Below the pieces are notes generated by a model. It was not told where the DNA came from. It saw only the letters and a list, made by a program, of their open reading frames with translations, and did not search any database. Positions 28,362 through 64,000 of a stretch of 64,000 nt of DNA are shown one piece after another; within the stretch, counting starts at the first letter, position 1, and every line of letters starts with the position of its first letter. This DNA is from Patescibacteria group bacterium (GTDB lineage Bacteria; Patescibacteriota; Minisyncoccia; Phycocordibacterales; JBBTRF01). The translations under genes and the position numbers were made by a program. Where the stretch lies: positions 12,021 through 76,020 of the forward strand of contig JBBTRF010000002.1 of the NCBI GenBank assembly GCA_038065315.1, given 5' to 3'.

Positions 28362-28365
28362 GCGA

Positions 28366-29133
28366 TTACTTCGCCGCCTTCTTGATGAACAGCGCGAGGT
28401 CGAGCGTATCCGCCTGCTCAGTTTTTGTGATCGTGAATGGTCCTTCGAATGGTCCGTTGACGCAATTCCACTCCACTTCGCCGTGCTTTCGGGTGATCGC
28501 ATCCAATTCAGCAAATGTCCACTCGCGCAAATGCCAATAATTCTTCGGCGTGCCATCGGCCTTGGTGTACTCTGGTCGCTTGTTCGGTGTAGTCAAGAAG
28601 ACGCCGCGCTTCGAGACACGCAACACTTCGTCGAGGAAGCGATGGTAGTCCTCCACGTGCTCCAACACTTCCACACAGGTGATCATGTCAAAATAATTGT
28701 CAGGATAGTCGAGTTTATAGCCATCGTACAAAGAGAGTTTTTTCAACTTTGGATGCTTGCCGGCAAGTACGCGTTGGCAATAGTCGTAGGCTTTCTTATC
28801 GACATCGGCGCCATACACCTCAGTCGCTTTGTTCCCCAAAAGCACCAGTCCATAGCCGGTGCCAAATCCGACATCGAGCACACGGTCGCCCTCCTTCACA
28901 TAATTATTGAGGGCACGAAAATACACCTCGATCTGGCACGGTGGAATGATTCCTTCGATTCCCGAGACAGCCGAGTATTCCTTCGGATCGGTCTTTTTCG
29001 ACGTGTTAAAAACCAGGCCAACCGAACTCGCCGTTTTCACCGGCATGATCCGGAATCCGAGCGTGCTGTCTAGACAATTATTGACTGCTTTTAGGGTTTT
29101 TTTGATCATATAAATAGGAGCCAATTTTATCAC
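28366..29133 (-). CDS. class I SAM-dependent methyltransferase
   Basis: VLDVGFGTGYG motif I, ITCVEVLEHV, SKRGVFLTTPN. Confidence 0.7.
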   Translation of the reverse strand: MIKLAPIYMIKKTLKAVNNCLDSTLGFRIMPVKTASSVGLVFNTSKKTDPKEYSAVSGIEGIIPPCQIEVYFRALNNYVKEGDRVLDVGFGTGYGLVLLGNKATEVYGADVDKKAYDYCQRVLAGKHPKLKKLSLYDGYKLDYPDNYFDMITCVEVLEHVEDYHRFLDEVLRVSKRGVFLTTPNKRPEYTKADGTPKNYWHLREWTFAELDAITRKHGEVEWNCVNGPFEGPFTITKTEQADTLDLALFIKKAAK

Positions 29134-31953: not shown

Positions 31954-31977
31954 AATAATAGTTGATTAAATAAAAAA

Positions 31978-33240
31978 TTACGGGTGCTGGGTGAATCTAA
32001 AGTCGAACAGCACCTTGCTTGGTACTGGCGGCAGCCGCTTGGTGCGATAGAAGCCGGCATTGTCGACGTTGATGACCGCAGCGTCGACAACAACATCGAG
32101 GATCTCGGAGTTCAGGCTATCGGTGGCCATGAAGAGGTCAAGTAGGTACTCACCAGTTTCCAAGTTGAAATGTTTGATCTCTACTTCGATCATGCCTTTT
32201 CCGGGTTTGAGTTCGATCTTCTGATCGAGGACAGAGTTGGTGATATTCGACAGGTCTTCGCCTTTCGCATTTTTGATGCCGATGGATACTTTTGCATTCA
32301 CGTACGGCGTAATCGTTTTATTCACATAGCCGATGGCGAGTCGCAGTAAATGCTTCTCTTGGTCCATCTCGATGACTTCGCACGAGTTGAAGCGTACAAA
32401 GCCGCTGCCCTTGCGATCTGTGCGTGCGCCGAGGTCAGAGTCGCTCATTTCTTTTCGAGTGTGTAGGTAGAAATCAATGACCTCTTTTGTGTTGCCGACC
32501 ATCTTTACTCGGCCGCCATCAATCAGCACACATTTGGTACAGAGCTTTTCGACGGCCGCCATGTTGTGGCTCACGAAGAGGATGGTTCGGCCGGTTTCCT
32601 TCACCACTTCTTCCATTTTGCCAAGACACTTCTTTTGGAATTCCGCATCACCAACAGCCAACACTTCATCCACAAGCAGAATGTCGGGCTCCATGTGTGC
32701 TGCGACGGAGAACGCCAGGCGTACGTACATGCCGCTCGAGTAATATCGCACTGGCGTGTCGAGGAATTTTTCTACGCCGGAGAAGGCGACGATGGCATCG
32801 AACTTCTGCGAGATTTCTTTCCGAGTCATGCCCAAGATCGCTCCGTTTAGATAGATATTTTCTCGGCCGGTGAGTTCAGGGTGAAAGCCTGTGCCCACTT
32901 CGAGGAGGGAAGCCACTCGTCCGCGCATGATGATCTCGCCTTCAGTCGGCGGGGTGATACCGGTGAGGATTTTCAAGAGAGTGGATTTGCCGGCGCCGTT
33001 CGAACCGATGATACCGATAATCTCACCTTTGTTGATTGATAAATCCACCTCCCGGAGCGCCCAAAAGGCTTCCTTGGTATCTATTCCCATTGCCGTTTTT
33101 GCTTTGTGTGCGGCAAAGCGGAAAGGATTTTTAAAAATATTTGCCAGAACGTCGCGCAGTGCAATGTAACCGCCCGCGCTGTGGCTGATGGTGTACTTCT
33201 TGCCGATTCCCTTGATTTCGATGATTGGTTGCATGGTCAT
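31978..33240 (-). CDS. wzt: O-antigen/teichoic-acid export ABC transporter ATP-binding protein with C-terminal glycan-binding extension (Wzt/TagH-like)
   Basis: GSNGAGKSTLLK Walker A, LSGG-like signature YSSGMYVRLAFS, Walker B ILLVDE; about 170-aa C-terminal beta-rich extra domain. Confidence 0.8.
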   Translation of the reverse strand: MTMQPIIEIKGIGKKYTISHSAGGYIALRDVLANIFKNPFRFAAHKAKTAMGIDTKEAFWALREVDLSINKGEIIGIIGSNGAGKSTLLKILTGITPPTEGEIIMRGRVASLLEVGTGFHPELTGRENIYLNGAILGMTRKEISQKFDAIVAFSGVEKFLDTPVRYYSSGMYVRLAFSVAAHMEPDILLVDEVLAVGDAEFQKKCLGKMEEVVKETGRTILFVSHNMAAVEKLCTKCVLIDGGRVKMVGNTKEVIDFYLHTRKEMSDSDLGARTDRKGSGFVRFNSCEVIEMDQEKHLLRLAIGYVNKTITPYVNAKVSIGIKNAKGEDLSNITNSVLDQKIELKPGKGMIEVEIKHFNLETGEYLLDLFMATDSLNSEILDVVVDAAVINVDNAGFYRTKRLPPVPSKVLFDFRFTQHP

Positions 33241-33256
33241 GTGTTTTGGATGGCGA

Positions 33257-34093
33257 CTAGATCACGTCGGCAAAGTAGCGCTCGACCTTTTTGAAATATA
33301 CGGTACCGATCACGAGGAGCACGAGGCAGGCAGCGAAAGAGATTGACACCAACTCCCAATTGATGGGCGCTGTGCCCAACAAAGTTGCGCGTGCTGTTTG
33401 GATGACACCCATCATCGGGTTGAGTGCGAGTAGCCAGGAGTATTTTCCAGCAATACTCGCTGGATAGATAACCGGTGTCACAAAGAGGAGGGTTTGAATG
33501 AAAAAGGGCAACACGAAACGCACATCGCGATACTTCACGTTGATCGCCGCGAGGAAGAGCCCGCCGCCGACCGCGGCCATAAAGGTGATGATGAGTAAGA
33601 GTGGAATCACGGCAATACTTGCAAGCTCCGGCACGTATCCGTAGTAGATCATCATGCCGGCGAGAATAAAAGCGGCAATGGCGAAGTCGACGAATTTGGT
33701 GGTCACTGAAGAGAGCGGCAGAATCAAGCGTGGAAAATACACTTTGGTGATGATGGCCTGGTTTGAAATGAGTACGTTGCTTGTGTCGCTCAGTGCGCCA
33801 GAGAAGAATTGCCAGAAGAGTAGGCCAACATACACGAAGATTGGGTAAGGGACGTTGTCAGAAGGGATTTGAGCCAGTGTGCCGAAGAAGACGCTAAACA
33901 CCACCATCGTAATGAACGGCTGGAAGATCGCCCAGAGTGCACCGATTGCTGTCTGCTTGTAGCGCACCTTCAGGTCGCGCCACGTGAAGAAAGCAAGGAG
34001 CTCGCGATAATTCCAAACCTCACGAAAATCATAAAGGCTAAATGTCTTTTTTGGCCGAATGATATTTTCGATGGTCTCTGTTGAGGTGGGCAT
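33257..34093 (-). CDS. wzm: ABC-2 type polysaccharide export permease (Wzm/TagG-like)
   Basis: 278 aa, 6 TM, N-terminal WNYRELLAFFTWRDLKVRYKQTAIGALW ABC-2 signature. Confidence 0.8.
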   Translation of the reverse strand: MPTSTETIENIIRPKKTFSLYDFREVWNYRELLAFFTWRDLKVRYKQTAIGALWAIFQPFITMVVFSVFFGTLAQIPSDNVPYPIFVYVGLLFWQFFSGALSDTSNVLISNQAIITKVYFPRLILPLSSVTTKFVDFAIAAFILAGMMIYYGYVPELASIAVIPLLLIITFMAAVGGGLFLAAINVKYRDVRFVLPFFIQTLLFVTPVIYPASIAGKYSWLLALNPMMGVIQTARATLLGTAPINWELVSISFAACLVLLVIGTVYFKKVERYFADVI

Positions 34094-34123
34094 GGTGAAG
34101 AGATGGGACTGAATTCTAGAATA

Positions 34124-34444
34124 TTACCACTTATTAATCTTCTTCACGACCTTCTTCTTCGCGCTCAAATACGTGCGGACGGCTTCACGCTCGAGTTCTG
34201 GAGAGACGAGGCGAAGGATTTCTTTGCCGAGAATACGGTACTGGCCACCCACTTTGTTGGCACGCAACAGGCCGCGTTTTAGGAGGCGCTTGATCGTGCT
34301 CTCGCTGATGCGCAGGATGTCCTGCGTTTCGTTGGTGGTATAGATGCCGAGCGGCGCAACTTCCGTAATACCGCTTGCGACAGAGGTGTTTTGGGTCAGT
34401 CGATTCATGAAGTACATAGTAGCAGAAAAGTCAAAAGGTGTCAA
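34124..34444 (-). CDS. helix-turn-helix (excisionase/MerR-like) DNA-binding protein
   Basis: 106 aa; YTTNETQDILRISESTIKRLLKRGLL HTH, Lys-rich C-terminal tail. Confidence 0.5.
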   Translation of the reverse strand: MTPFDFSATMYFMNRLTQNTSVASGITEVAPLGIYTTNETQDILRISESTIKRLLKRGLLRANKVGGQYRILGKEILRLVSPELEREAVRTYLSAKKKVVKKINKW

Positions 34445-34543
34445 AATGTGTCATGTGGATAATCGTCGGCGGGGTCGGCGCCGCCTATCGGTGCGTGATG
34501 GTTCCCAAAAGGGTGGCACCTTCGGCTTCAGTGCGGTATAGTT

Positions 34544-36802
34544 ATGCCCATGAATACTGAATATATTGCAAAATGGGTGGCTCGCGCAGGCATGTTCCTG
34601 CTTCTGATCGTACCTTTCGTCGTGGCCGATGGCATGCTCTTCCCGAATTCCTTCTTTCCATTTATCACCGGCAAAGCTTTCGTTTTTCGTTTTTTGGTGG
34701 AAGTGATTCTTGCGGCATGGCTCGTCCTCGCCTTTGTCGATGAACAATATCGCCCGCGCTCGTCCTGGATCGCGCGGGCTGTCGGCGTCTTCATCCTCGT
34801 CATGTTCATTGCCGACCTCGGCAGTGAAAATCCGTTCAAAAGTTTCTGGTCCAACTTCGAGCGCATGGAAGGCTTCGTCACGCTCATTCACCTCGGCGCC
34901 CTTTTCCTTGTGGCCGGTTCGCTGCTCAAAACCGAGGCTTTGTGGAACCGTTTCTGGCAGAGCTCTCTCGTGGCGAGCGTGCTCATGGCGGCGTACGGCC
35001 TGTTTCAGCTCGAGGGTTGGGCGTTGATTCATCAGGGCAGTACGCGCCTCGATGCGTCACTTGGTAATTCCGCCTATCTCGCGGCCTACATGATTTTCCA
35101 CGTGTTCATTGCGCTTTTCCTCTTGCTTCGCTACGTAAAAAAATACGCCGGCACTTCTCAGTGGTCGGCTTGGTTGCCTTCGCTCTATGGTGCAGCTGCC
35201 TTGCTCGACCTCACCGTCCTATATCACACCGCTACTCGTGGCGCCCTCATCGGTACCGCTCTTGGACTTACAGTGATCGCTGTTGGCTTGGCGGCTTTTG
35301 AAAAGGAACAGAAAGTCCTCCGCAATATCGGTATTGGTGCGCTCATTGCGATTGTGTTGGGTATCAGCGCCCTCTTCATTGGCAAAAATAGCGATTTCGT
35401 GAAGAAGAGCGAAGTACTTTCGCGTTTCAGCAGCTTGGCGACCTTCGATGTTTCCTCGATCGCGCAGGGCGAAGGGAAGTCCCGATTCAAGATTTGGAAT
35501 ATGGCCTGGGAAGGCGTGAAGGAGCGTCCGATTCTTGGTTGGGGACAGGAGAGTTTTAATTACCTTTTCTACAAACACTACTCCCCGGAGATGTATGACC
35601 AAGAGCCATGGTTCGACCGTGCGCACAATGTGTTTCTCGATTGGCTGGTGGCCGGCGGCTTTCTTGGCTTGCTATCATATCTCGCGATATTTGCTGCGCT
35701 CATTACGCTGGTCTGGAAAAAGCACATGCCATTCAGCTTGCCGGAACGGCTGACACTCATAGCTTTGGTGGTCGCATATTTTATCCACAATATTTTCGTG
35801 TTTGATCAGCTCGTGAGCTACCTCTACTTCTTCCTCGTGCTCGCGTACATCCACGCGCTGTATCATCACACTCGCGAGGGGCAGGGCGAGACGAAGGTCG
35901 GGATCTGGTGGAAGGCACATCGCCAAACGCTCGAAGATGCCGGCGTGCCTGTGGTGCTCGTACTGTTTGTTGCGGTCGTCTGGGCGGTGAATTGGAGCGG
36001 CTTCGCGCAGGCGACTCGTCTCATCGATGCCATCTCTCCACAAAAAGAGGGGTTGGCAAAAAATATCGAAATGTTTAAGGATGTTCTCGACCGTCGATCG
36101 ATGGGGTTGTATGAATCTCGCGAACGCCTTGCTGAAATAGCGGTGCAGATGAGCCGTGCAAATGTCGATCAGCTGCAGAAGACAGAAGTATTCAATTTGG
36201 CATATGCTGAACTCAAGAAGCAGCTCGAAGAGACTCCAAATGATGTGCGCTATCTCTACTTCGTGTCTTCTTTCTTGTCGTCGTACCAGCGATATTCAGA
36301 GGCTTTGCCACACGCGCTAAAAGCGGTGGAATTGTCGCCAAAGAAACAGATGTTGTTGATAAATCTCGGCGGTATTTATCTCAATATCGGGCAGGTAAAG
36401 GAAGCCTTGGCGGCATACAAGACGGCGTTCGACCTTGCTCCAAAATATGAAGAAGCACGATTGTCGTATGCGGTCGCAGCGGTATATGCAGGTGACGAGG
36501 CGTTGCAGAAACAGTTGCTCGAGCCGGTATACGGCACAACGCTCATGACTGATCAACGTTTCTTGCAGGCATATGTTAATACAAAACAGCCGCAAAAGGC
36601 GATTCGTGCGCTCAGCGCGTTGGTTGCAGCTACGGTGCCAGATGATTTGCAACTTCGGCTCAAGCTCGCTTCGTTGTATTTGCAGACTGGCGACAAGGCC
36701 GGAGCGATTGTCCAGGTGAAAAGGGCTGGCGAACTGCATCCGGAATTTGCTCAGGAAGTGCCGGCGTATTTGAAGGAGATTGCGAACTACAAAGGGAATT
36801 AG
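34544..36802 (+). CDS. O-antigen-ligase-like (Wzy_C) membrane protein fused to C-terminal TPR repeats
   Basis: 752 aa; about 10-12 TM N-half with ligase-type large periplasmic loop; C-terminal about 250 aa with TPR-like A/L/Y periodicity. Confidence 0.6.
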   Translation: MPMNTEYIAKWVARAGMFLLLIVPFVVADGMLFPNSFFPFITGKAFVFRFLVEVILAAWLVLAFVDEQYRPRSSWIARAVGVFILVMFIADLGSENPFKSFWSNFERMEGFVTLIHLGALFLVAGSLLKTEALWNRFWQSSLVASVLMAAYGLFQLEGWALIHQGSTRLDASLGNSAYLAAYMIFHVFIALFLLLRYVKKYAGTSQWSAWLPSLYGAAALLDLTVLYHTATRGALIGTALGLTVIAVGLAAFEKEQKVLRNIGIGALIAIVLGISALFIGKNSDFVKKSEVLSRFSSLATFDVSSIAQGEGKSRFKIWNMAWEGVKERPILGWGQESFNYLFYKHYSPEMYDQEPWFDRAHNVFLDWLVAGGFLGLLSYLAIFAALITLVWKKHMPFSLPERLTLIALVVAYFIHNIFVFDQLVSYLYFFLVLAYIHALYHHTREGQGETKVGIWWKAHRQTLEDAGVPVVLVLFVAVVWAVNWSGFAQATRLIDAISPQKEGLAKNIEMFKDVLDRRSMGLYESRERLAEIAVQMSRANVDQLQKTEVFNLAYAELKKQLEETPNDVRYLYFVSSFLSSYQRYSEALPHALKAVELSPKKQMLLINLGGIYLNIGQVKEALAAYKTAFDLAPKYEEARLSYAVAAVYAGDEALQKQLLEPVYGTTLMTDQRFLQAYVNTKQPQKAIRALSALVAATVPDDLQLRLKLASLYLQTGDKAGAIVQVKRAGELHPEFAQEVPAYLKEIANYKGN

Positions 36803-38837: not shown

Positions 38838-41402
38838 ATGAAACCGAGCTTCTTAGAGCGATTTGGCAAGCTATTTGGCGACGAGAACGAAAAGGCCTTG
38901 AAGAAGGTGCGTCCTTTGCTGCCCAAAATCAACGCTTTGGAGCCGGAAATACAGAAGTTGACCGATGTGCAGCTGAAAGCGAAAACTGCCGAATTTAAGG
39001 CACGGATCGCCGCGGGCACCACACTCGATGCACTTTTGCCCGAAGCTTTTGCCGTGGTTCGCGAAGCGTCGCGCCGTACCCTCGGCCAACGACATTTTGA
39101 TGTGCAGCTGGTGGGTGGTGCGATCATCCATGGCGGTGGTATTGCCGAGATGCGTACCGGCGAGGGCAAGACCTTGGTGGCGACCTTGCCTGCGTACCTT
39201 AATGCCCTCGCCGGTAAAGGAGTTCACGTGGTGACCGTGAACGACTACCTCTCGCGCCGCGACGCGGTATGGATGGGTAAAATCTATTCCTTCCTCGGCT
39301 TGTCGGTGAGCGTGCTCAATCATGAAGCGTCGTATTTGTATGATCCAGCGCATGTTGCACCGACACAGACTGAGGCAGAAGCGTTCGAGAAAAAGGAAAC
39401 CGAGCAAGGATTTTTCAAGGTGGTGCACGAATTCATGCGCCCATGCAGTCGCCGCGATGCGTACCTTGCCGACATCACCTACGGCACCAACCACGAATTC
39501 GGCTTCGACTATCTGCGCGACAATATCGAGTATGAGTCAAAAATGCTTCGTCAACGCCCACCGGCCTGCGCCATTGTCGACGAGATCGACTCTATTTTGA
39601 TCGACGAAGCGCGCACGCCACTCATCATTTCTGCACCAGCGCGCGACTCCGGAGAAATGTATGCGCAATTTGCGAAGATTGCTGCGACGCTTGAGCAAGA
39701 GACCGACTACACTGTCGACGAAAAATTCCATTCCATCGCTCTCACCGATGCAGGCATCACCAAGGCCGAGAAGGCGATTGGTGTCGACAATATCTATACA
39801 GAAAAAGGTATTGCGTATGTGCACCATCTCGAGACTGCGGTGCGGGCGAAGGCGCTGTATCATCGCGAGAAGGAGTATGTGGTGAAGGAGGGCGAGGTCA
39901 TGATCGTGGACGAATTCACCGGTCGTCTCCAGCCAGGCCGCCGTTGGTCGGAGGGGTTGCATCAAGCTGTTGAGGCGAAGGAAGGTGTGAAGGTGCAGCA
40001 GGAATCGCGCACGTATGCGTCGATCACGTATCAGAACCTATTTCGATTGTACCCAAAGCTTTCTGGTATGACGGGCACCGCGCTCACCTCGAAAGAAGAA
40101 TTTTTTAAAGTGTACGGCCTTGAGACGGTTTCGATTCCGACGCACCGCGAGATCACGCGAAAGGATCACAACGACCAGATTTTCCAAACCGAGGCGGGAA
40201 AATTTCAGGCCATCGCTCGCAAGGTGAAGGAGCTCAATACCAAGGGCCAGCCGGTGCTCATCGGTACTGTGTCTATTGAGAAAAACCAGCTCTTGTCGGC
40301 TTTTTTGAAGCAGGAGGGTGTGAAGCATGAATTGCTGAATGCGAAGCCCGAATACGCGGAGCGAGAGGGCGAGATCGTGGCGCAGGCGGGCAAGCGCGGT
40401 GCAGTCACCATCTCGACCAACATGGCCGGCCGAGGCGTGGATATCAAATTGGGCGGTGCGACTGCCACTCCAGCTGAATACGAAGAGGTGAAGGCGCTCG
40501 GTGGGTTGTTTGTGCTCGGTACCGAACGCCACGAGGCACGACGCATCGACAATCAGCTTCGAGGTCGTGCTGGCCGACAGGGTGACCCGGGTGACACGCA
40601 ATTTTTCGTGTCGCTCGAGGACAATTTGATGCGTATTTTTGCTTCGGATACCGTGAAAAAGATGATGGGCCGATTGAACATTCCCGATGATCAGGCAATC
40701 GAAAATATCATTATCACCAAATCGCTCGAAAGCGCGCAGACCAAGATCGAAGGTTTCCATTTTGACGCGCGAAAGCAGGTGCTCGAGTACGACGATGTGT
40801 TGAATCTCCAGCGATTGAGTATTTATGAAAAGCGCCGCAAGGTGCTGCTTGGCACGCAGGCCGATGTTGATGCCGCCCTCGACCAATATGTGGTTGAATC
40901 CGGATCCGTCGAATTGGCTGAGGCAATCCGCAAAGTGATCGCTGAGAAGCGCGAGAAGCTCGGCGAAGCAGAATTTTATGCCACTATCCGCCGCCTGCTT
41001 TTACAATCGACCGACCTTTTCTGGGTGGAGCATCTTGAAGCGATGGACTATATTCGCTCGAGCGTACGTTTGCGTGCGTATGGTCAGCGTGATCCGCTCG
41101 TGGAATACAAGAAGGAAGGTTTGTTGCTTTTCAAGCGCATGGAGCAAAGTGCTCGCGAGCAGGTGTTGAAACTCCTCCCAAACATTGGCGCCGGTGCCTT
41201 TGTTGCCGACGAAAAAGCGATGCGCGAGACGCAGAAGAAGATGCACTTGATCAGCGGCGACGAGTCCGCACCTGCCAACGCTGCTGGCTCGGCAAACTCT
41301 GGCAAGGTCGCTATTGGCGACGGCACCTTCGCTAAGGTCGGCCGAAACGACGATTGTCCTTGCGGTTCAGGGAAGAAGTACAAGAAGTGTCATGGTGCGT
41401 AA
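38838..41402 (+). CDS. secA: preprotein translocase ATPase SecA
   Basis: 854 aa; DEAD-motor, PPXD, HWD and C-terminal zinc-finger CPCGSGKKYKKCHG. Confidence 0.9.
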   Translation: MKPSFLERFGKLFGDENEKALKKVRPLLPKINALEPEIQKLTDVQLKAKTAEFKARIAAGTTLDALLPEAFAVVREASRRTLGQRHFDVQLVGGAIIHGGGIAEMRTGEGKTLVATLPAYLNALAGKGVHVVTVNDYLSRRDAVWMGKIYSFLGLSVSVLNHEASYLYDPAHVAPTQTEAEAFEKKETEQGFFKVVHEFMRPCSRRDAYLADITYGTNHEFGFDYLRDNIEYESKMLRQRPPACAIVDEIDSILIDEARTPLIISAPARDSGEMYAQFAKIAATLEQETDYTVDEKFHSIALTDAGITKAEKAIGVDNIYTEKGIAYVHHLETAVRAKALYHREKEYVVKEGEVMIVDEFTGRLQPGRRWSEGLHQAVEAKEGVKVQQESRTYASITYQNLFRLYPKLSGMTGTALTSKEEFFKVYGLETVSIPTHREITRKDHNDQIFQTEAGKFQAIARKVKELNTKGQPVLIGTVSIEKNQLLSAFLKQEGVKHELLNAKPEYAEREGEIVAQAGKRGAVTISTNMAGRGVDIKLGGATATPAEYEEVKALGGLFVLGTERHEARRIDNQLRGRAGRQGDPGDTQFFVSLEDNLMRIFASDTVKKMMGRLNIPDDQAIENIIITKSLESAQTKIEGFHFDARKQVLEYDDVLNLQRLSIYEKRRKVLLGTQADVDAALDQYVVESGSVELAEAIRKVIAEKREKLGEAEFYATIRRLLLQSTDLFWVEHLEAMDYIRSSVRLRAYGQRDPLVEYKKEGLLLFKRMEQSAREQVLKLLPNIGAGAFVADEKAMRETQKKMHLISGDESAPANAAGSANSGKVAIGDGTFAKVGRNDDCPCGSGKKYKKCHGA

Positions 41403-55045: not shown

Positions 55046-55144
55046 GGCTAAAATAGGGCTCTAAATATGGTTATACACAGCTGGCTTGCTATACTGGGTA
55101 TATTCGTGTATTATTGGGTATAGTTGGTATATAACCAATCACGT

Positions 55145-56215
55145 ATGGAAGAAAATCGCCTCAACAAAAGAATACCACTGTCGCAAGACATCCTGGCTAG
55201 AATTTCTAAAATAGACCAATTCCAGGGTCTTTGGCAGGGCAGTCTTCGTCTTAGCCCGCAGATCCTCGGGCGTCTTAAGGCGTTCGTGATTATCACCTCA
55301 ACAGGTGCCTCGACTCGTATCGAGGGAGCTAAAATGACGGACGAAGAAATCGCTCGCTTTTTGCGCGGTCTTAAAAATCAACCTCCAAAAGGTCGCGATC
55401 AGGAAGAAGTGGCCGGTTATGCCGATCTCATCGCTCGTGTTTTTGATAATTGGAAAACCATCAAGCTCACTGAGGGTTGGATACAGCAATTCCACACCAT
55501 CCTTCTCCAGTTCTCAGAGAAAGACAAAATGCATAAGGGCAAATACAAAGATGGCGACAATACAGTCGTAATGGAGAACGACAAAAAGGAAAATGTTGTG
55601 CTATTTAATCCTACTCATTCGTATCTCGTAAAAGCAGAAATGCTCGCGGCAACCGAGTGGGCAAATGGGCAACTTCAAAGTCGCCAAATCCACCCAATCT
55701 TAGTGATCGCAAATTTCATCTTTGAATTTTTGGCTATTCACCCATTCTCGGATGGTAACGGGCGAGTCAGCCGCGCTCTCACCAATCTTCTGCTCCTTCA
55801 GGCGGGATACAGTTATGTGCCGTATGTATCGCTCGACGAGATCATCGAGCAGACTAAGGTTGATTATTATCTCGCGTTACGCGCAACACAAAAGAACCAT
55901 GGAACTGACCGTGAAGATGTTGCGCCGTGGGTCGACTATTTCCTCACCGCTCTCACCGAACAGACCGAGCGAGCTCGCAAGATCGTGAGCGATGATCAGC
56001 CAGAAAAACTTCTCTCTGAAAAACAAAAAGAGGTCTATCAACTATTCACCGAAGATACAGAAAAGGGCAAGGAAATAGGGGTAGCTGAAATGGTCAGGCT
56101 TCTTAACGGCAGAATTGAAAGAGAAACTATCAAGCAGGCATTGTCCCGCTTGGTGAAATTGAAGCTCCTTGAACGGGTCGGACAAGGGAGGGGGACGCGA
56201 TACGTAAAAATCTAA
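55145..56215 (+). CDS. Fic/DOC family protein (class II, N-terminal inhibitory helix) with C-terminal wHTH
   Basis: HPFSDGNGRVSRAL Fic motif; N-terminal STRIEG matches [ST]xxxE[GN] auto-inhibition motif. Confidence 0.75.
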   Translation: MEENRLNKRIPLSQDILARISKIDQFQGLWQGSLRLSPQILGRLKAFVIITSTGASTRIEGAKMTDEEIARFLRGLKNQPPKGRDQEEVAGYADLIARVFDNWKTIKLTEGWIQQFHTILLQFSEKDKMHKGKYKDGDNTVVMENDKKENVVLFNPTHSYLVKAEMLAATEWANGQLQSRQIHPILVIANFIFEFLAIHPFSDGNGRVSRALTNLLLLQAGYSYVPYVSLDEIIEQTKVDYYLALRATQKNHGTDREDVAPWVDYFLTALTEQTERARKIVSDDQPEKLLSEKQKEVYQLFTEDTEKGKEIGVAEMVRLLNGRIERETIKQALSRLVKLKLLERVGQGRGTRYVKI

Positions 56216-57826: not shown

Positions 57827-58339
57827 TTGCGATATAATGACACTAATCAGCATTTAGCCTTTATATCATCCATGACCAGCAAATTCAGCCATTTTGCAGC
57901 AGTCGGACTCCTCGTGGCAGCGGGCTATTCGCTCTCACTCGGTGTCGATGGACGTCAGCAGATAGTCGCGATGTCTGAGGTGGTTGCAGATGTTGCTTCA
58001 GGCGCTGTTGGGCAAGTTGCCGACGTTTCCAAAGACGTCTTGGCCACGGCGAAGCATCTTTCGTTCGCCAACATCTACAACGCCTTCGGTATACTCACCG
58101 GTGCGGTAGAGAATGTTGAAGTGGAGCGATCCGCCGCAGCTGTCTCGCAGGTGTTGGTGGTGACAGAGGCAGACGCCGCTTTATCCGACGAAGAGCAACA
58201 AGCTCTCATTCAAGATTCATTTTCTGATACCGTGAAGGTGGTGCCGGATGCTACAAAAAAATCCGGGACGATTATCCCGGTGTTCCGAGGGGTTGAAGGT
58301 GAAAAGTATTTGTATGTCGCGGTGCCAGTGAAGAAGTAG
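57827..58339 (+). CDS. hypothetical secreted/membrane-anchored protein
   Basis: 170 aa, N-terminal hydrophobic segment; no homology. Confidence 0.3.
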   Translation: MRYNDTNQHLAFISSMTSKFSHFAAVGLLVAAGYSLSLGVDGRQQIVAMSEVVADVASGAVGQVADVSKDVLATAKHLSFANIYNAFGILTGAVENVEVERSAAAVSQVLVVTEADAALSDEEQQALIQDSFSDTVKVVPDATKKSGTIIPVFRGVEGEKYLYVAVPVKK

Positions 58340-58365: not shown

Positions 58366-59049
58366 ATGATCAAAACATCAACACAGACAATCACAGCTCT
58401 CTCCAGAACGCTAGCACTTGCGCTCATCGGTAGCTTGCTCGCACTTGCGCTATTTCCGGCGATCGAACCATCATTCCTCGTCGCCGCTACGGCAACGGAT
58501 GAAGTCGTGGTGACGTTGAATGTGGGTGCCGGTATCTCGATCACTTCGCCGGCCGACGCCACGATGAGCACCACTATCGGCATCTCGACGACAAAAGCCA
58601 TCGCCACTACGACGTGGAATGTGAAGACCAACAATGCTGCCGGCTATACATTGGCTCTGAAATCCGCTACGTCTTCGACCCCGGCCATGAAGCAAGATTC
58701 CGACAACACCAAGGTCATCGCGGATAACACCGCCGGTGTCACCACGCCAGCTTTGTGGGGTAGTATGGGTGCAAACACTGCTGAATTCGGCTATAGCGGT
58801 TACGGTACGGATGTCACTACGGCAACATATGGCTCGGATAGTAGTTGTGGTGCAACGAGTACACCATCTACGGCTCTGAAATACACATCTTTGCGCACTA
58901 CCGACCGCACATTGGCTTCGCGTTCTTCCACCACGACAGCCGCTGGTGTAGATACTGTCGCCTGCTATGCAGTCGAACAAGGCAGCAACTTCTTCATCGC
59001 TTCCGGAACGTATACCGCCACCGTCACTGCGACTGCTACCACACAATAA
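58366..59049 (+). CDS. WxL-domain-like secreted surface protein (CscB/C-like)
   Basis: signal peptide; Thr/Ser/Ala-rich beta protein with TTWNVKT and C-terminal ...ATVTATATTQ; paralogous to 60058-60813. Confidence 0.45.
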   Translation: MIKTSTQTITALSRTLALALIGSLLALALFPAIEPSFLVAATATDEVVVTLNVGAGISITSPADATMSTTIGISTTKAIATTTWNVKTNNAAGYTLALKSATSSTPAMKQDSDNTKVIADNTAGVTTPALWGSMGANTAEFGYSGYGTDVTTATYGSDSSCGATSTPSTALKYTSLRTTDRTLASRSSTTTAAGVDTVACYAVEQGSNFFIASGTYTATVTATATTQ

Positions 59050-59054
59050 ACACC

Positions 59055-60047
59055 ATGCCCAAGACCACGAGAAAAATTTCCGCTCTCATTTTTCTCCCGC
59101 TCATTGCGACCGCGGTCTTCTTTTCCGTGCCGTTTTTGGCAGAGGCCGCCGTTTCGCCGTTTCAGATCAGTGCGGTCAATGTTGAGCCTGTTGGGGACTT
59201 CGTGCTCGAGCCGGGGAAGATCGACGTGTATCTCGAGCCGGGGGAGACGGTGACACGCACGATTTTTGTCACCAATCGCAATCCACGCAAGATCAATTTT
59301 AGGATCGAGACCGAGGATATTGAAGGAAATCGCGATCCGATCAATCCTGTGACATTGCTTGGCGAAGCTAAAGGTCCGTATCCATTCAAAGATGCGTTGT
59401 TGCCGGCGGTTACGGAATTCGAGCTCGATTTCGGACAGAAGATCGCTATTCCGATCCAGATCAAGATCCCGCTCAACGCTTCTCCAGGCGGCCACTACGC
59501 GGCGGTAATCATTTCCAACGCGCCGAGCAAATTGCAAAAGGATGTTGGCGGTGCGCGTGTCATCTCTCGGCTCGGCGCCTTGTTCTTTGTGCGCGTGAAG
59601 GGCGAAGTGAAAGAAGAAGGGCAGTTGAAGGAAGTGCGTATTGCCGGACCCCAGCAGCTGTTTTATGAAAAAGGCCCTTCAACATTTGAAGTCTTGTTTG
59701 AAAATACCGGTACGGTGCACCTTGTGCCATATGGACGTCTGCGCGTCACCAACCTCTTCGGAGAAACCATCAGTGAAGTGCCGGTCGATGCATATTTTTC
59801 TCTGCCGAGTTCGCTCCGCTATCGTGAGGTGGAATGGCAGCCGGGTTTTCTGCTCGGCAGATATACGGCGAGTGTGGAGCTCTATCGCGGATACAAAAAC
59901 TCCAATGACATCAGCGATACCCAAACCGTTTCATTTTGGGTGATTCCGAAAATGTTACTGCTAGAAATATTCATTGTACTTCTTTTGATTGTCCTGGCGA
60001 TTCGCTACGTTGTCACTCATTTTGAATTCCGAAAACGCAAGGAATAA
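59055..60047 (+). CDS. DUF916/DUF3324-like cell-surface protein with C-terminal TM anchor (CscA-like)
   Basis: signal peptide, beta-rich ectodomain, C-terminal LLLEIFIVLLLIVLAI TM + RKRKE stop-transfer; sits between two WxL-like genes as in Csc loci. Confidence 0.45.
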   Translation: MPKTTRKISALIFLPLIATAVFFSVPFLAEAAVSPFQISAVNVEPVGDFVLEPGKIDVYLEPGETVTRTIFVTNRNPRKINFRIETEDIEGNRDPINPVTLLGEAKGPYPFKDALLPAVTEFELDFGQKIAIPIQIKIPLNASPGGHYAAVIISNAPSKLQKDVGGARVISRLGALFFVRVKGEVKEEGQLKEVRIAGPQQLFYEKGPSTFEVLFENTGTVHLVPYGRLRVTNLFGETISEVPVDAYFSLPSSLRYREVEWQPGFLLGRYTASVELYRGYKNSNDISDTQTVSFWVIPKMLLLEIFIVLLLIVLAIRYVVTHFEFRKRKE

Positions 60048-60057
60048 TAAGGCTTTT

Positions 60058-60813
60058 ATGAGGAATATCACTATTCTCATCCTTAGCATCGGCACGATTT
60101 TTTCCGCACTGCCGGCGAATGTTTTTTCCGCCGTAATGAGTAGCGGTAATTATCAGATCGAGCGCGACTCACTGAATATTGGCGGACTGGATTCGCAAAG
60201 TGCAAGCTACGCTAGTCAAGACACGATCGGCGAGGTGGGGAGTGGGCGTTCCTCGAGTGCCTCCTATGCCGTGAATGGTGGATACCAACAAATGGCCGAC
60301 TCCAGCATCTCGATCACTAGTCCGTCCGATGTCACGATGGAGGCCGTGAGCGGCTTCAGTGGCGGTACGAGTAATGGGTCAACGACGTGGCGGGTGACGA
60401 CAGACAATTCGACAGGATATTCGCTTTCCGTGCGGTCCGCGGCATCACCGGCCATGGTCGGGCAGCTGAATGGTAGTTTTATTCCGAATTATACCCCCGC
60501 GACCTCAGATCCGGACTTTGCTTTCTCTGTAGGCTCGAGCGCTTCGGTGTTTGCATACACCCCAGAAGGGACACATGTGGTACAGAGATTTTTAGACAAC
60601 GGTTCGGCTTGCAACACAGGGAGCGGCACGACGGCCGATGCCTGTTGGGATGCCTTCAGCACGAGCAATGTGCAAGTGGCGAGCAGTGCGTCTGCCAATA
60701 CGCCATCCGGGACTGATACGACGATCAAATACCGTGTCGGTATCGGTGCTTCGCGCTTCCAAGACTCCGGCGTGTATGAGGCGACTATCATCGTGACGGC
60801 AACGACGTTATAA
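60058..60813 (+). CDS. WxL-domain-like secreted surface protein (paralog)
   Basis: signal peptide; TTWRVTTDNSTGYSLSVRSA and C-terminal ...ATIIVTATTL parallel the 58366 protein. Confidence 0.45.
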   Translation: MRNITILILSIGTIFSALPANVFSAVMSSGNYQIERDSLNIGGLDSQSASYASQDTIGEVGSGRSSSASYAVNGGYQQMADSSISITSPSDVTMEAVSGFSGGTSNGSTTWRVTTDNSTGYSLSVRSAASPAMVGQLNGSFIPNYTPATSDPDFAFSVGSSASVFAYTPEGTHVVQRFLDNGSACNTGSGTTADACWDAFSTSNVQVASSASANTPSGTDTTIKYRVGIGASRFQDSGVYEATIIVTATTL

Positions 60814-60814
60814 T

Positions 60815-62290
60815 ATGACAATGACACAGTCCGTGTTTTCCGACTTCGGCTTGCGCCACGTTGCTTTCGCGAGCGTGCTTGTTTTTGTGATCTCTTGCAA
60901 GGTACTTGCGGCGACTGCCGCTGATTCCGTGCAGGTTCAATTGCTGGTCGACAACGGTACGTCGACAAGCACCACCACTTCAGATACCGCTACGTCGTCC
61001 TCGTCCTCATCTTCGGCGAGTTCTTTTTTCGCCAACGGCATGCCGAACGGACCGCTCTCGCCGGCGGTAAACCAAAGCGAATTACCGTCGCTGCTCGATG
61101 GGAATGTGCTGGTCTCTGCCGGACAATCGCCAAATACGCGCACAGTATTCCAATGGAAAACATCCGCGCCGACGTCAGCGGTATTTGAGTGGGGCGAGAC
61201 CGCTTTTTATGAAATGGGGAGGGTGAGTTTGCCCATAAATATGGCTCAGAATAAGGATAATTTTGGGTATCTGTACCAAGAAGCCGTGCCGGGTTTTGTG
61301 CCAGGAAAAACGTACTTATACCGCCTGACGGTGCGGGATGAAAATGGGCGAGTGTCCGGGTATCAGGGCACCTATGCGGTGCCTGTCGAGCCGGAACGTA
61401 TCTTGCCGGAAAATGTTTCGGCCGTGGTTCTTAAGCCGGTGTCGACGCCGACTGAAAGACAAATTCTCATCCAATGGGAAAATCCTGATGCAGAAGATTT
61501 TTCCGAAGTGCGTGTAGTGCGATCGCCATTCGGTTTTCCGAAAGATCCGCTCGACGGTCGAGTAGTGTATGAAGGTGGGGCGGAAAATGTCACCGATGCA
61601 TTTGCGGTTGGAGATGTCAGTGAATATTTTTATACGATTTTCGCGAAACGAAAAGATGGGACGTATTCGTCCGGCGCCGTCGCGACGACACGCGGTTTGT
61701 TTGGCGGTGCGACAGCGCCGGACAGGCCGAGTCGCTCTGCACAATCAGTGGCTGATCTAGCGGCGCTCGCCGCCGCTGATTTTTCGGTGACGCTGTATGA
61801 CGCCAACGGCGGCGAGCTCGTCCACAGGCTCTCCGAGACCGGTCTTGTTGTGGTGGCGGGGGAGAGGATTACCATTTCCGCACCGTATGAGAAATTCCCC
61901 GAAGTCCTGAAGACCATTTTGGTGCATATCACGCCGTCGAGATCGGCCCCGGAAGCTATTCCGAATGCTGCCGGTCCGGCTAACAGCACCATGAGTTTTC
62001 TCCTCAGTGTCAATGCGGCAAGTACGGCTTATGAAGCGACTTTTTTGGCGCCGAGTGAAAGCGGCAGTCACGATGTCGAGGTAAAAATTCTTGACTATCA
62101 CTCTGATATATTACGAAATATCACCGCACAAGACGCCTTGAACGTGAAAAAGCCGGAAACGAATTTACGAAATGTCCTGAAAAATGCAAAAAGTCAATTT
62201 AAAAGTGTGGAAAAACCCTTAGTATTAGCCATTTTTATCACCCTGATTCTCCTGACCCTTGCGCTCCGCAAAATAGTGAGGTTTTTTTAG
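60815..62290 (+). CDS. secreted Ser/Thr-rich surface protein with FN3/PAP-N-like beta domains and C-terminal TM anchor
   Basis: 491 aa, signal peptide, poly-Ser stretch, C-terminal LVLAIFITLILLTLAL. Confidence 0.4.
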   Translation: MTMTQSVFSDFGLRHVAFASVLVFVISCKVLAATAADSVQVQLLVDNGTSTSTTTSDTATSSSSSSSASSFFANGMPNGPLSPAVNQSELPSLLDGNVLVSAGQSPNTRTVFQWKTSAPTSAVFEWGETAFYEMGRVSLPINMAQNKDNFGYLYQEAVPGFVPGKTYLYRLTVRDENGRVSGYQGTYAVPVEPERILPENVSAVVLKPVSTPTERQILIQWENPDAEDFSEVRVVRSPFGFPKDPLDGRVVYEGGAENVTDAFAVGDVSEYFYTIFAKRKDGTYSSGAVATTRGLFGGATAPDRPSRSAQSVADLAALAAADFSVTLYDANGGELVHRLSETGLVVVAGERITISAPYEKFPEVLKTILVHITPSRSAPEAIPNAAGPANSTMSFLLSVNAASTAYEATFLAPSESGSHDVEVKILDYHSDILRNITAQDALNVKKPETNLRNVLKNAKSQFKSVEKPLVLAIFITLILLTLALRKIVRFF

Positions 62291-62372: not shown

Positions 62373-64000
62373 ATGAAGCGTGTTTTTCACACAATTTCTG
62401 CTGTTGCAAAAAAAGCTTTCACGCTCTTTTTCCTACTCAATTTTGTCTTCTCGCCGACCTTCGAAAATATCCTCCTCAGCTCGAATCTCAGCGCTCCTTT
62501 GGCGGCCCGCATCGCTGAAGCCGCCTTCAACCAGCAGATCAACTACCAAGGCAAGCTCACCGACACATCCAACGTGTCTGTGTCAAACGGTTCGTACAAT
62601 ATCGAGTTCAAGTTGTACACGGCGCTCACTGGCGGCACGGCGATCTGGACCGAGACCTGGTGTAAGGGTACTTCGTGTTCCGGTACTGGTACGGACAGCC
62701 GTATCACCGTCACGAGCGGCCTGTTCAGCACCATGCTCGGCAGCACCACAGCACTCACCAGTGTCGACTTCAATCAGCCGCTCTACCTCAGCATCAACAT
62801 CGGCGGTTCCGCGAGCACTCCGACCTGGGACGGTGAAATGTCGCCGCGAAAAATTCTCGGTGCCGTGCCAGCCGCTTTCCAGGCCAAGCAACTCAACGGC
62901 TTGAACGACACGCAATTCCTCCGCACCGACGCAAACAACTCCACCTCCACCGCGAGTGCGTTCATCACCCTCACGCAGTCGGGCGCCGGCAATATTTTGA
63001 ATCTCGTCGGACAAAGCTCCGCGAGCGTCTTCACAGCGCTCTCGAGTGGCAACGTCGGCATCGGCACCACTTCTCCCGGCCAGAAATTGAGCGTGGCGGG
63101 TGACATTTTGGGGAACAATATTATCGGGAGTTATTTCACCGGCACCTCAACAACAGCCTCGACTCTCGCAGGCGCCTTCACCTCGTCTGGTATTGTCACT
63201 GGCTCTGCACTCGTCGCAAGCTCTGCTTCGGCAACCTCGACTTTTGCCGGTGGACTTGCGATCGAGACTTCGGGACTTGTCTATGACTACTCGACGAACA
63301 ATGTGGGTATCGGGACGGCGAGTCCAGGGTATAAGCTTGATATAAGTGGAACCACCCATATTACCGGAGATGTTACTCTTGATTCTCGCCTTATGATGCC
63401 AGGGGCGGCCGCAACCTTACCAGCTAACTCAATCGGTCTTCAAGATGGAGCGGGTCTTTACAGTAAATACAATGGTGGCTCCTCTCCTCTTTTGATAGCT
63501 GGGTATTCCAGTAACATTCTCCAAATTGGAGAAAGTGGTTATCAAATAAATTCCCCAGGCTCTTCGTTCACACTTACTGGTAGTTTTGCTTCAGGAGCTG
63601 GAAATGATAATGATGCAGCGTATGGAATGGGAGCAGGAAATGACGGTATGTATTTACCTACCACTAACGAAATAGGATTCACAACCCAGAATACAGAAAA
63701 AGTGAGAATTACCGCCGCAGGCAACGTCGGCATCGGCACCACTTCTCCCGGCCAAAAGTTGAGCGTCGCCGGAGACATTTTGGGGAACAATATTATCGGG
63801 AGTTATTTTACGGCGACTTCCACGACCGCCACCTCAAACATCGCAGGCCTCCTCACCGTCACTGGCCTCACCACACTTGGCAACGCTTCCACAACCCAGA
63901 TTGGCTCGACGGGAAATGCATATTTTGCAACGGGTGGTTCTGGGGCAGTGGGAATTGGGACGACGACTAATTTCAGTAGCTTCAAGTTGCTTGTCAAAGC
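62373..64000 (+). CDS. large secreted tail-fibre-repeat protein (GIGTTSPGxKLxVAG repeats), 3'-truncated by window edge
   Basis: own translation from ATG 62373 gives open frame to 64000 (not in ORF track because unterminated); signal peptide; repeated NVGIGTTSPGQKLSVAGDILGNNIIGSYFT units. Confidence 0.5.
   Translation, partial: MKRVFHTISAVAKKAFTLFFLLNFVFSPTFENILLSSNLSAPLAARIAEAAFNQQINYQGKLTDTSNVSVSNGSYNIEFKLYTALTGGTAIWTETWCKGTSCSGTGTDSRITVTSGLFSTMLGSTTALTSVDFNQPLYLSINIGGSASTPTWDGEMSPRKILGAVPAAFQAKQLNGLNDTQFLRTDANNSTSTASAFITLTQSGAGNILNLVGQSSASVFTALSSGNVGIGTTSPGQKLSVAGDILGNNIIGSYFTGTSTTASTLAGAFTSSGIVTGSALVASSASATSTFAGGLAIETSGLVYDYSTNNVGIGTASPGYKLDISGTTHITGDVTLDSRLMMPGAAATLPANSIGLQDGAGLYSKYNGGSSPLLIAGYSSNILQIGESGYQINSPGSSFTLTGSFASGAGNDNDAAYGMGAGNDGMYLPTTNEIGFTTQNTEKVRITAAGNVGIGTTSPGQKLSVAGDILGNNIIGSYFTATSTTATSNIAGLLTVTGLTTLGNASTTQIGSTGNAYFATGGSGAVGIGTTTNFSSFKLLVK

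What the first reader, a model, noticed from the sequence alone, without database searches (positions are those of the whole stretch)
58366..62290. Csc-like cell-surface complex locus: two WxL-like proteins flanking a DUF916/DUF3324-like anchored protein, then a Ser-rich FN3-like anchored protein
The gene order WxL - DUF916/TM-anchored - WxL mirrors the cscABCD/WxL loci of Firmicutes that bind peptidoglycan and plant/host polymers. Finding this architecture next to gatB in a putatively CPR-like genome would be unusual and relevant to host attachment.
Basis: inference. Interest (0 to 1): 0.55.

Follow-up and report, generated by a model that had tools for sequence, protein, structure and literature searches.

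The report
Compact usher-less pilus operon in Parcubacteria
Four tightly packed genes in a groundwater candidate-phyla-radiation (CPR) bacterium most likely build a thin surface fibre from two small pilin-like proteins, a membrane-anchored chaperone and a membrane-anchored base protein, and the chaperone is related both to the newly described CPR "Pam" pilus and to the WxL surface clusters of lactic acid bacteria.

Summary
Gaps between them are 5, 10 and 1 nt. The A-B-C-D order recurs in about 70 of 81 related CPR loci.

- **D is supported.** It is a tandem-FN3 protein with a C-terminal membrane anchor.
- **A and C are not WxL proteins.** There is no Pfam hit, hhalign probability is about 1%, and each has only one W-x-V motif. 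They are paralogous chaperone-usher-type pilin domains, and C matches NCBIfam CPR_pilus_PamT (E 2.6e-10, far below the cut-off).

Best reading: a minimal, usher-less pilus assembled by donor-strand exchange. C would be the tip, A the shaft, B the anchored chaperone and D the terminator and anchor. This resembles the Pam pilus (2026 preprint), but in Parcubacteria and with single-domain pilins. The architecture is shown; assembly is inferred.

I rate it a new variant of a known kind.

The parts
58366..59049 (+). Gene A: 227-aa secreted single-domain pilin-like protein, the putative shaft subunit
   Evidence: ORF and public gene call. Paralogue of C (E 4e-22; hhalign 99.9%). Conserved Cys161/Cys200 pair. 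Duplicated in about 10 of 81 loci. One orthologue weakly hits NF058581 CPR_Pam_pilin_C.
58495..58536 (+). N-terminal extension of mature A (TDEVVVTLNVGAGI), the candidate donor strand
   Evidence: It lies just after the signal peptide and contains the invariant V53 and G56 and the near-invariant L51. It is not aligned to C. The motif [IVL]x[IV]xLx[VI]xx[GSC] occurs in 76% of A, 65% of D and 1.3% of other ORFs. Its function is inferred.
59055..60047 (+). Gene B: 330-aa membrane-anchored two-domain protein, homologous to WxLIP (DUF916-DUF3324-TM) with a PapD-like chaperone fold
59949..60020 (+). C-terminal transmembrane helix of B (residues 299-322)
   Evidence: Helix in the AF2 model; hydrophobic segment 292-325.
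60058..60813 (+). Gene C: 251-aa secreted PamT-like pilin, the putative tip subunit
60133..60291 (+). N-terminal extension of C with three S-x-N/S-Y repeats (residues 26-78)
   Evidence: Highly conserved across 56 orthologues but pLDDT below 50 in the monomer model. It lacks the A/D strand motif (2.5%). Function unknown.
60815..62290 (+). Gene D: 491-aa protein with an N-terminal strand, a Ser/Thr-rich linker, two FN3 domains, a third beta domain and a C-terminal TM helix; the putative terminator and membrane anchor, with PamR-like architecture
   Evidence: 32 of 45 orthologues hit Pur_ac_phosph_N and 29 of 45 hit fn3. The profile hits tandem-FN3 chains in the PDB, titin at 1e-14. Hydrophobic segment 464-489. 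Present after C in 72 of 81 loci.
60923..60958 (+). N-terminal strand of mature D (DSVQVQLLVDNG), a second copy of the A-type strand motif
   Evidence: L43 and V45 are nearly invariant; motif statistics; alignment. Inferred to insert into the last A subunit.
60959..61024 (+). Ser/Thr-rich run of D (residues 49-70)
   Evidence: Read directly from the sequence. It replaces the four-Cys module GCNNNxICE..GE..CPxDC found in most orthologues.
62204..62281 (+). C-terminal transmembrane helix of D (residues 464-489)
   Evidence: Hydropathy; conserved hydrophobic C-terminus in orthologues.
62373..64000 (+). Start of gene T: a giant (3545 aa in the public call) secreted tail-fibre-like protein that runs off the window; a frequent neighbour and possible partner
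   Evidence: Translation. Gene call of 3545 aa. Follows D in 62 of 81 loci. Hits PHROG virion-structural, tail-spike and tail-fibre families and the Bdellovibrio fibre Bd2133.

Best explanation
The locus is a four-gene operon for a minimal, usher-less surface fibre (pilus) of a Parcubacteria/Paceibacteria-type CPR bacterium, assembled by donor-strand exchange.

**Proposed assembly**
- All four products are exported by Sec.
- B stays in the membrane through its C-terminal helix. Like PapD/FimC, PamC/PamD and WxLIP, it caps the incomplete Ig-like fold of newly exported pilin domains with one of its own strands. The candidate is the conserved strand 172-181 that follows the flexible acidic loop.
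- C has the pilin domain but no A-type N-terminal strand. It would start the fibre and sit at the distal tip, displaying its conserved 50-residue S-x-N-Y repeat extension.
- A would polymerise head-to-tail, its N-terminal strand (VVVTLNV) filling the groove of the previous subunit.
- D carries the same strand motif at its mature N-terminus, followed by a linker, two FN3 domains and a TM helix. It would insert last, stopping growth and tethering the fibre to the membrane.
- The fibre, possibly together with the neighbouring giant tail-fibre-like protein T, would serve host or surface attachment.

**Shown:** gene structure, conservation, the folds, the homology of B to WxLIP, the sub-threshold HMM match of C to PamT, and FN3 plus TM in D.

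**Inferred:** donor-strand exchange, the order of subunits, filament formation and the adhesive role.
For: - **Operon:** gaps of 5, 10 and 1 nt. ABCD order in 60 of 81 loci, with extra A copies in 10 more.
- **A:** shares this domain with C. One A orthologue hits NF058581 CPR_Pam_pilin_C.
- **D:** tandem FN3 plus TM, with an N-terminal strand as described for PamR.
- **Shared strand motif:** present after the signal peptide in 76% of A and 65% of D orthologues against about 1% of other ORFs, and absent from C.
- **Other parallels with Pam:** conserved Cys pairs in A and C, as in the Pam pilins. A tail-fibre-like neighbour, as reported around pam operons.
Against: - There is no direct evidence of a filament, and no complex prediction could be run.
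- The PamT match is 40 bits against a 240-bit equivalog cut-off. A, B and D hit no Pam model at E<=1, except one A orthologue at 1e-3. It is not known whether NCBIfam holds PamC, PamD or PamR models.
- A and C are single-domain proteins, whereas the resolved PamA and PamB pilins have two domains.
- B's closest solved relative, WxLIP, has been assigned a non-pilus role as a peptidoglycan and host linker.
- The strand motif was defined after inspecting A and D, so its enrichment is descriptive rather than an independent test. A motif HMM built from A alone found D N-termini only weakly (best E 0.11).
Confidence: 0.6

Rival explanations
1. Csc/WxL-type cell-surface complex. A and C would be non-polymerising wall-associated modules held at the surface by the membrane-anchored WxLIP homologue B. 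Together with D they would form a static platform that binds host or polymer ligands, with no filament.
For: B is a bona fide WxLIP homologue. The order small protein, WxLIP, small protein mirrors Firmicute clusters fetched here, for example L088 and L085, and the commonest type of one WxLIP plus two WxL proteins.
Against: A and C fail every WxL test: Pfam, hhalign about 1%, no dual W-x-L motif, and the solved WxL chain is not among the structural matches. There is no LPXTG protein or sortase. C matches PamT and chaperone-usher pilins. The shared N-terminal strand motif in A and D and the repeated duplication of A fit a polymer better than a 1:1 complex.
Confidence: 0.2
2. Anchoring and assembly module for the giant tail-fibre-like protein T. 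A-D would mainly exist to export, fold or tether T (3545 aa) to the envelope, with T as the functional adhesin.
For: T follows D in 62 of 81 loci. It resembles phage fibres and spikes and the Bdellovibrio prey-recognition fibre Bd2133. The Pam preprint also finds a tail-fibre-like protein central in pam neighbourhoods.
Against: Near-identical strains carry A-D without T downstream (L092 and L093). The D-T gap is 82 nt, against 1-10 nt within A-D. T shows no A/C-type domain (no hits at E<=1e-3) and no A-type strand motif (0%).
Confidence: 0.12
3. Unrelated secreted beta-sandwich proteins, such as S-layer or envelope structural components, that only superficially resemble pilus parts.
Against: The specific hits point elsewhere: WxLIP and chaperone-usher chaperones for B, pilins for C. 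The PamT HMM match, the strict four-gene synteny and the complementary anchor and strand features are also hard to explain this way.
Confidence: 0.05

Closest known systems
Pam pilus of Candidatus Mycosynbacter amalyticus (Saccharimonadia): PamA, PamB, PamE, PamT, PamC/PamD, PamR; bioRxiv 10.64898/2026.03.03.709456
   Same: A CPR host with no usher. PapD-like chaperones carry a C-terminal TM helix, as B does. There is a single-domain tip pilin, PamT, which C matches with the NCBIfam model. An FN3x2 protein with a TM helix and an N-terminal strand acts as terminator and anchor, with the same architecture as D. The pilins carry paired cysteines, and a tail-fibre-like gene lies nearby.
   Different: This locus has four genes where the pam proteins named in the preprint span accession suffixes 277 to 289. 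The shaft candidate A is a single domain of about 185 mature residues, not a two-domain pilin of 39-55 kDa. There is one chaperone, not two. All HMM scores are far below the equivalog cut-off. The lineage is the Parcubacteria group, which the preprint never mentions; it reports Saccharimonadia and Microgenomatia. No ATP-synthase genes lie in the 10 kb upstream.
WxL / Csc clusters of Firmicutes (small and large WxL proteins plus WxLIP = DUF916-DUF3324-TM; Siezen 2006, PMC1534035; Hassan and Williamson, PMC9772566 and PMC10599100; PDB 9i1y, 9i25)
   Same: B is homologous to WxLIP over both domains and the TM helix. The gene order is small secreted beta protein, WxLIP-like protein, small secreted beta protein. 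WxLIP is predicted to complete its partner's sandwich with a strand, which is the same logic as chaperone capping.
   Different: The partners A and C are not WxL domains by HMM, profile-profile comparison, motif or structure. There is no LPXTG protein or sortase. The extra FN3 anchor D has no annotated counterpart in the Firmicute clusters fetched here. The host is CPR, not Lactobacillales or Listeria.
Chaperone-usher pili of Gram-negative bacteria (Pap, Fim, Csu, CFA/I, Cup)
   Same: C has the fold of these pilins, and A shares that domain by homology to C. B has the fold of their chaperones. A has an N-terminal extension with alternating hydrophobic residues. The logic of a tip without a strand and a terminator with one matches FimH/PapG and PapH.
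   Different: There is no outer membrane and no usher. The chaperone and terminator are membrane-anchored. There is no detectable sequence similarity.

Membership tests
WxL/Csc cluster | At least two proteins with a WxL domain (Pfam PF13731) | tested here: not met
   No hit at E<=1 for A or C or for 56 C-family orthologues; A's orthologues were scanned only against NCBIfam, not Pfam. hhalign of the A and C families against 14 annotated WxL proteins gives 1.4% and 1.3%; trimmed domains give <=1.3%. An early 48% hit covered only 16 columns.
WxL/Csc cluster | Two Trp-x-Leu motifs on adjacent strands, the second near the C-terminus | tested here: not met
   A has only W84-N-V and C only W111-R-V. 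The C-terminal strands read YTATVTATA and YEATIIVTA, with no Trp.
WxL/Csc cluster | WxL-domain fold | tested here: not met
WxL/Csc cluster | WxLIP: DUF916 (PGBD) plus DUF3324 (HBD) plus a C-terminal TM helix | tested here: met
WxL/Csc cluster | Small LPXTG protein (CscD) and sortase dependence | tested here: not met
   No C-terminal LPXTG-like motif in U, A, B, C or D, and no sortase signature in an ORF of the window.
CPR Pam pilus | PamT tip pilin (NCBIfam NF058579 equivalog, cut-off 240 bits) | tested here: inconclusive
   C scores 40 bits, E 2.6e-10, over residues 4-131. 53 of 56 orthologues hit, best E 4e-14. This is a homologue, not an equivalog.
CPR Pam pilus | Two-domain major pilins (nine-strand NTD, linker donor strand, truncated Ig CTD) | tested here: not met
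   A (227 aa) and C (251 aa) have one folded domain. Only one A orthologue weakly hits NF058581 CPR_Pam_pilin_C, at E 1e-3.
CPR Pam pilus | PapD/FimC-like chaperone with a C-terminal TM helix | tested here: met
CPR Pam pilus | PamR: tandem FnIII plus a C-terminal TM helix plus an extra N-terminal strand | tested here: met
   The architecture is met. Homology to PamR itself was not testable, because no sequence was available.
CPR Pam pilus | Assembly into a filament by donor-strand exchange | not testable with these tools
   This needs multimer prediction or cryo-EM. Only indirect support is available: the strand motif in A and D and the pilin fold.
Chaperone-usher pilus | Outer-membrane usher | tested here: not met
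   No such gene lies in the operon or its conserved flanks. CPR bacteria lack an outer membrane (established knowledge).

The most novel reading that the evidence does not exclude
The WxL/Csc clusters of Firmicutes and the Pam pili of CPR bacteria would be branches of one ancient system in bacteria without an outer membrane. In that system a membrane-anchored PapD-like chaperone (WxLIP, PamC/D or B) caps and hands over incomplete Ig-like subunits without an usher. The four-gene Parcubacteria cassette would be its minimal form: tip, shaft, chaperone and anchor. Two things would follow. WxLIP would be a chaperone rather than a passive linker. Short donor-strand fibres would be the commonest attachment organelle in the largest CPR class.
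Probability: 0.35. Interest if true: 0.8.

Novelty: new variant of a known kind. Interest (0 to 1): 0.6.

Why it matters
Parcubacteria/Paceibacteria make up a very large share of CPR diversity, and how they attach to hosts is largely unknown. These four genes are annotated only as hypothetical proteins, yet the chaperone-like family alone has 1,061 close and 9,198 detectable cluster representatives.

If the reading is right, three things follow:
- The Pam-type pilus would extend well beyond the Saccharimonadia and Microgenomatia reported so far.
- The cassette is a four-gene minimal system, small enough to reconstitute in vitro or in a Gram-positive host.
- It would link two literatures that do not cite each other: the Pam preprint never mentions WxL or DUF916, and no paper in the library couples WxL with donor-strand assembly. 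That link suggests a testable chaperone function for WxLIP in Enterococcus, Listeria and Lactobacillus surface and virulence clusters.

Tried and rejected
- **Direct Pfam and NCBIfam scans of the four proteins.** Only C gave a meaningful hit. Scanning orthologue sets was needed to see DUF916 and FN3.
- **AFDB50 fold search.** The library was unavailable, so "WxL domain-containing" AlphaFold models could not be compared.
- **WxL homology of A and C.** I fetched ten Firmicute WxL clusters from plasmids, using the EfmWxLIP1 fragment printed as the query. I then ran hhalign full-length, trimmed, local and global. The by-eye similarity of motifs (GYxLxV against GWxLxV; YxATxTVTA against YxTTLTWxL) was not statistically supported, so I rejected membership.
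- **Motif HMM from A's N-terminal strand alone.** D N-termini were among the top non-A hits, but only at E >= 0.11. This is weak, so I report the regex enrichment as descriptive only.
- **Promoter and terminator scan.** Counts were no higher than in shuffled sequence.
- **Obtaining the M. amalyticus Pam sequences for direct comparison.** This was not possible with the collections and caps available.
- **The upstream ORF U (57872-58339).** It is conserved in only 8 loci, so I did not count it as part of the system.
- **A weak profile hit of the C family to PDB 9jdi BtpiA (E 0.087).** No literature was found, and I did not pursue it.
Full report
**Observation**

The region 58366-62290 holds four same-strand ORFs.
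- The longest-ORF starts of B and C overlap their upstream genes. The starts that give signal peptides are 59055 (MPKTTRK...) and 60058 (MRNITIL...).
- Independent public gene calls on a Hainich groundwater contig give exactly these products: A 227 aa, B 330 aa, C 251 aa, D 491 aa. That contig differs from the window at 3 of 10,000 bases.
- Gaps are 5, 10 and 1 nt, so the four genes form one operon.
- B is 100% identical to an NCBI "hypothetical protein [Patescibacteria group bacterium]". All named relatives are Parcubacteria-group CPR: Taylor-, Nomura-, Yonath-, Kaiserbacteria and Paceibacterota.

**Conservation**

A scan of one genome per GTDB species with the B-family alignment returned 80 loci. 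I called ORFs in them and searched with A, D and the B and C profiles.
- The order A-B-C-D appears in 60 of 81 loci (80 plus the window).
- AABCD or AAABCD appears in 10 more. Most of the rest are truncated by contig ends.
- The B family is large: 1,061 representatives at E<=1e-30 and 9,198 at E<=1e-3 among 1.84 billion cluster representatives.
- D evolves fast, with about 20% identity across the set, but it is present after C in 72 loci.

**Protein B**

Direct Pfam and NCBIfam scans of the window's B find nothing useful. The wider evidence is clear.
- 8 of 57 orthologues hit PF06030, WxLIP_PGBD = DUF916, best E 2e-7.
- The AF2 model is confident (pLDDT 90.4). It shows a signal peptide, two beta-sandwich domains at about residues 37-156 and 172-296, and a TM helix at 299-322.
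- The B-family profile finds EfmWxLIP1 by sequence at E 7e-6.
- I used the EfmWxLIP1 fragment printed in that alignment to fetch ten annotated WxL clusters from Enterococcus, Lactococcus, Listeria and Lactobacillus plasmids. hhalign of the B family against their WxLIPs gives 97.3%, E 2e-11, over 237 columns covering both domains. A reversed decoy gives 3%.

B is therefore a true, distant member of the DUF916-DUF3324-TM family, and it has the chaperone fold.

**Proteins A and C**

- They share a C-terminal domain of about 170 residues: 36% identity, E 4e-22; family-family hhalign 99.9%.
- C hits NCBIfam NF058579 "CPR-type pilus protein PamT" at E 2.6e-10, and 53 of 56 orthologues hit it. All are far below the 240-bit equivalog cut-off.
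- AF2 gives a confident domain at 80-251 (pLDDT above 90) and a low-confidence extension at 21-78.

The WxL tests all fail.
- There is no PF13731 hit in A, C or 56 C-family orthologues; A's orthologues were not scanned against Pfam.
- hhalign against annotated WxL proteins gives 1.3-1.4%.
- Each protein has one W-x-V motif and no C-terminal Trp.
- The solved WxL chain 9i25_A is not among C's structural matches.

**Protein D**

- 32 of 45 orthologues hit Pur_ac_phosph_N and 29 of 45 hit fn3.
- The family profile hits tandem-FN3 chains in the PDB, titin at 1e-14 and neogenin at 2e-13.
- D has a signal peptide, a Ser/Thr run at residues 49-70 and a C-terminal hydrophobic helix at 464-489.
- In most orthologues a four-Cys module, GCNNNxICE..GE..CPxDC, takes the place of the Ser/Thr run.

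**Mechanistic reading**

A 2026 preprint (10.64898/2026.03.03.709456) solved two filaments of the Saccharimonadia parasite Ca. Mycosynbacter amalyticus. It proposed an usher-less donor-strand pilus with these parts:
- two-domain pilins PamA, PamB and PamE;
- a single-domain tip, PamT;
- PapD-like chaperones with a C-terminal TM helix, PamC and PamD;
- an RbmA-like tandem-FnIII protein, PamR, with a TM helix and an extra N-terminal strand, which terminates and anchors the fibre.

The window's cassette has one of each functional class.

The sequences add a specific clue. Mature A begins with TDEVVVTLNVGAG, which contains the invariant V53 and G56 and the near-invariant L51. Mature D begins with DSVQVQLLVDNG. 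The shared pattern [IVL]x[IV]xLx[VI]xx[GSC] occurs just after the signal peptide at these rates:

| ORF class | Share with the motif |
|---|---|
| A | 76% |
| D | 65% |
| C | 2.5% |
| B | 1.2% |
| T | 0% |
| Other ORFs | 1.3% |

C lacks this strand. It carries instead a conserved triple S-x-N-Y repeat that AF2 leaves disordered.

This is the distribution expected for a tip (an acceptor only), a shaft subunit (donor and acceptor) and a terminator and anchor (a donor only). I defined the motif after looking at A and D, and an HMM built from A alone recovers D only weakly. I treat it as inference.

The candidate donor strand in B is the conserved RLGALFFVRV at 172-181. It follows a flexible acidic loop and sits at the domain 1-2 junction. 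In the sequence alignment this loop lines up with an acidic stretch of EfmWxLIP1; whether that stretch is the WxLIP hairpin which AF2 predicts to complete the WxL sandwich was not checked.

**Comparison and membership**

*Pam pilus.*
- Met: the chaperone and anchor architectures.
- Sub-threshold: the PamT relationship is real but below the cut-off.
- Not met: the defining two-domain pilins, and the ATP-synthase neighbourhood within the 10 kb upstream.
- The lineage is one the preprint does not mention.

*WxL/Csc.* Only the WxLIP component qualifies.

*Chaperone-usher pili.* The folds match, but there is no usher.

Hence "new variant of a known kind". The unplanned result is that one operon joins a WxLIP homologue to Pam- and chaperone-usher-like pilins. 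This suggests that WxL clusters and Pam pili may be related usher-less systems. I found no paper making that link.

**Neighbourhood**

- Downstream, 82 nt after D, starts a secreted giant protein of 3545 aa in the public call. It has repeated NVGIGTTSPGQKLSVAG units and matches to phage tail-fibre and spike PHROGs and to the Bdellovibrio fibre Bd2133.
- It follows D in 62 of 81 loci, but not in two near-identical strains.
- Upstream lie gatB, a Fic protein and obg, which are ordinary housekeeping genes.

**Limits**

- I could run no multimer prediction and no AFDB search.
- No Pam sequences were available for direct comparison.
- There are no expression or imaging data.
- Filament formation and subunit order are therefore inferred. 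I put the pilus reading at about 0.6 and the static WxL-like complex at about 0.2.

Noticed in passing
window 62373-64000 (+), continuing beyond the window; L091:13319-20993: A giant secreted protein, 3545 aa in the public gene call, with repeated NVGIGTTSPGQKLSVAGDILGNN units. It has no Pfam hit but matches PHROG virion-structural, tail-spike and tail-fibre families and the Bdellovibrio prey-recognition fibre Bd2133. It follows the cassette in 62 of 81 loci but is absent in two near-identical strains.
   Followed up: partly
window 60133-60291 (C residues 26-78): Three tandem S-x-N/S-Y-x-[IL] repeats (SSGNYQIERDSLNIGG / SQSASYASQDTIGE / SSSASYAVNGGYQQ). They include several invariant positions across 56 orthologues, are disordered in the AF2 monomer, and are the part of C that the PamT model aligns to. 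Function unknown; a possible tip adhesive element or an additional strand donor.
   Followed up: partly
window 60959-61024 (D residues 49-70), compared with orthologues in L003-L057: Most D orthologues carry a four-cysteine module, GCNNNxICE..GE..CPxDC, right after the N-terminal strand. The window's lineage (with L001 and L002) has replaced it with a Ser/Thr-rich run, possibly an O-glycosylated linker.
   Followed up: no
L006, L007, L015, L020, L021, L027, L032, L042, L071, L076: Gene A is tandemly duplicated (AABCD, once AAABCD) in about 10 of 81 loci. This is reminiscent of the two shaft pilins PamA and PamB.
   Followed up: no
D-family alignment against the WxLIP alignment (no window coordinates assigned): The third, non-FN3 beta domain of the D family gives a short hhalign match to the second (DUF3324/HBD) domain of Firmicute WxLIPs: 83%, 36 columns. 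This may be chance, or it may hint that D and B share a domain.
   Followed up: no
window 57872-58339 (+): A small 155-aa protein with an N-terminal hydrophobic segment lies between gatB and gene A. It is conserved in only 8 related loci, so it is probably not part of the core system.
   Followed up: partly
L016, L052, L062 and about 24 loci titled 'uncultured Candidatus Saccharibacteria': Contigs carrying this cassette are deposited under names such as Burkholderiales, Bdellovibrionales, archaeon and Saccharibacteria, although their cassette proteins sit among Parcubacteria-group sequences. These are probably mis-binned or generically labelled MAGs.
   Followed up: no
window 26355-36802: A cluster of envelope and glycan genes lies here: a fused GT1/GT2 glycosyltransferase (26355-28556, minus strand), an asparagine synthase (30127-31953, minus strand), and a Wzy_C O-antigen-ligase-like protein with TPR repeats (34544-36802, plus strand). 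They could glycosylate the Ser/Thr-rich surface proteins. SecA is at 38838-41402.
   Followed up: no
window 55124-56215 (+): A Fic-domain protein sits between obg and gatB, just upstream of the operon (Pfam Fic in the public gene call).
   Followed up: no
PDB 9jdi_C 'BtpiA': The C-family profile gives a weak match (E 0.087) around the TWxVxxDxxxGYxL motif to an uncharacterised PDB chain named BtpiA. No paper in the library describes it.
   Followed up: partly
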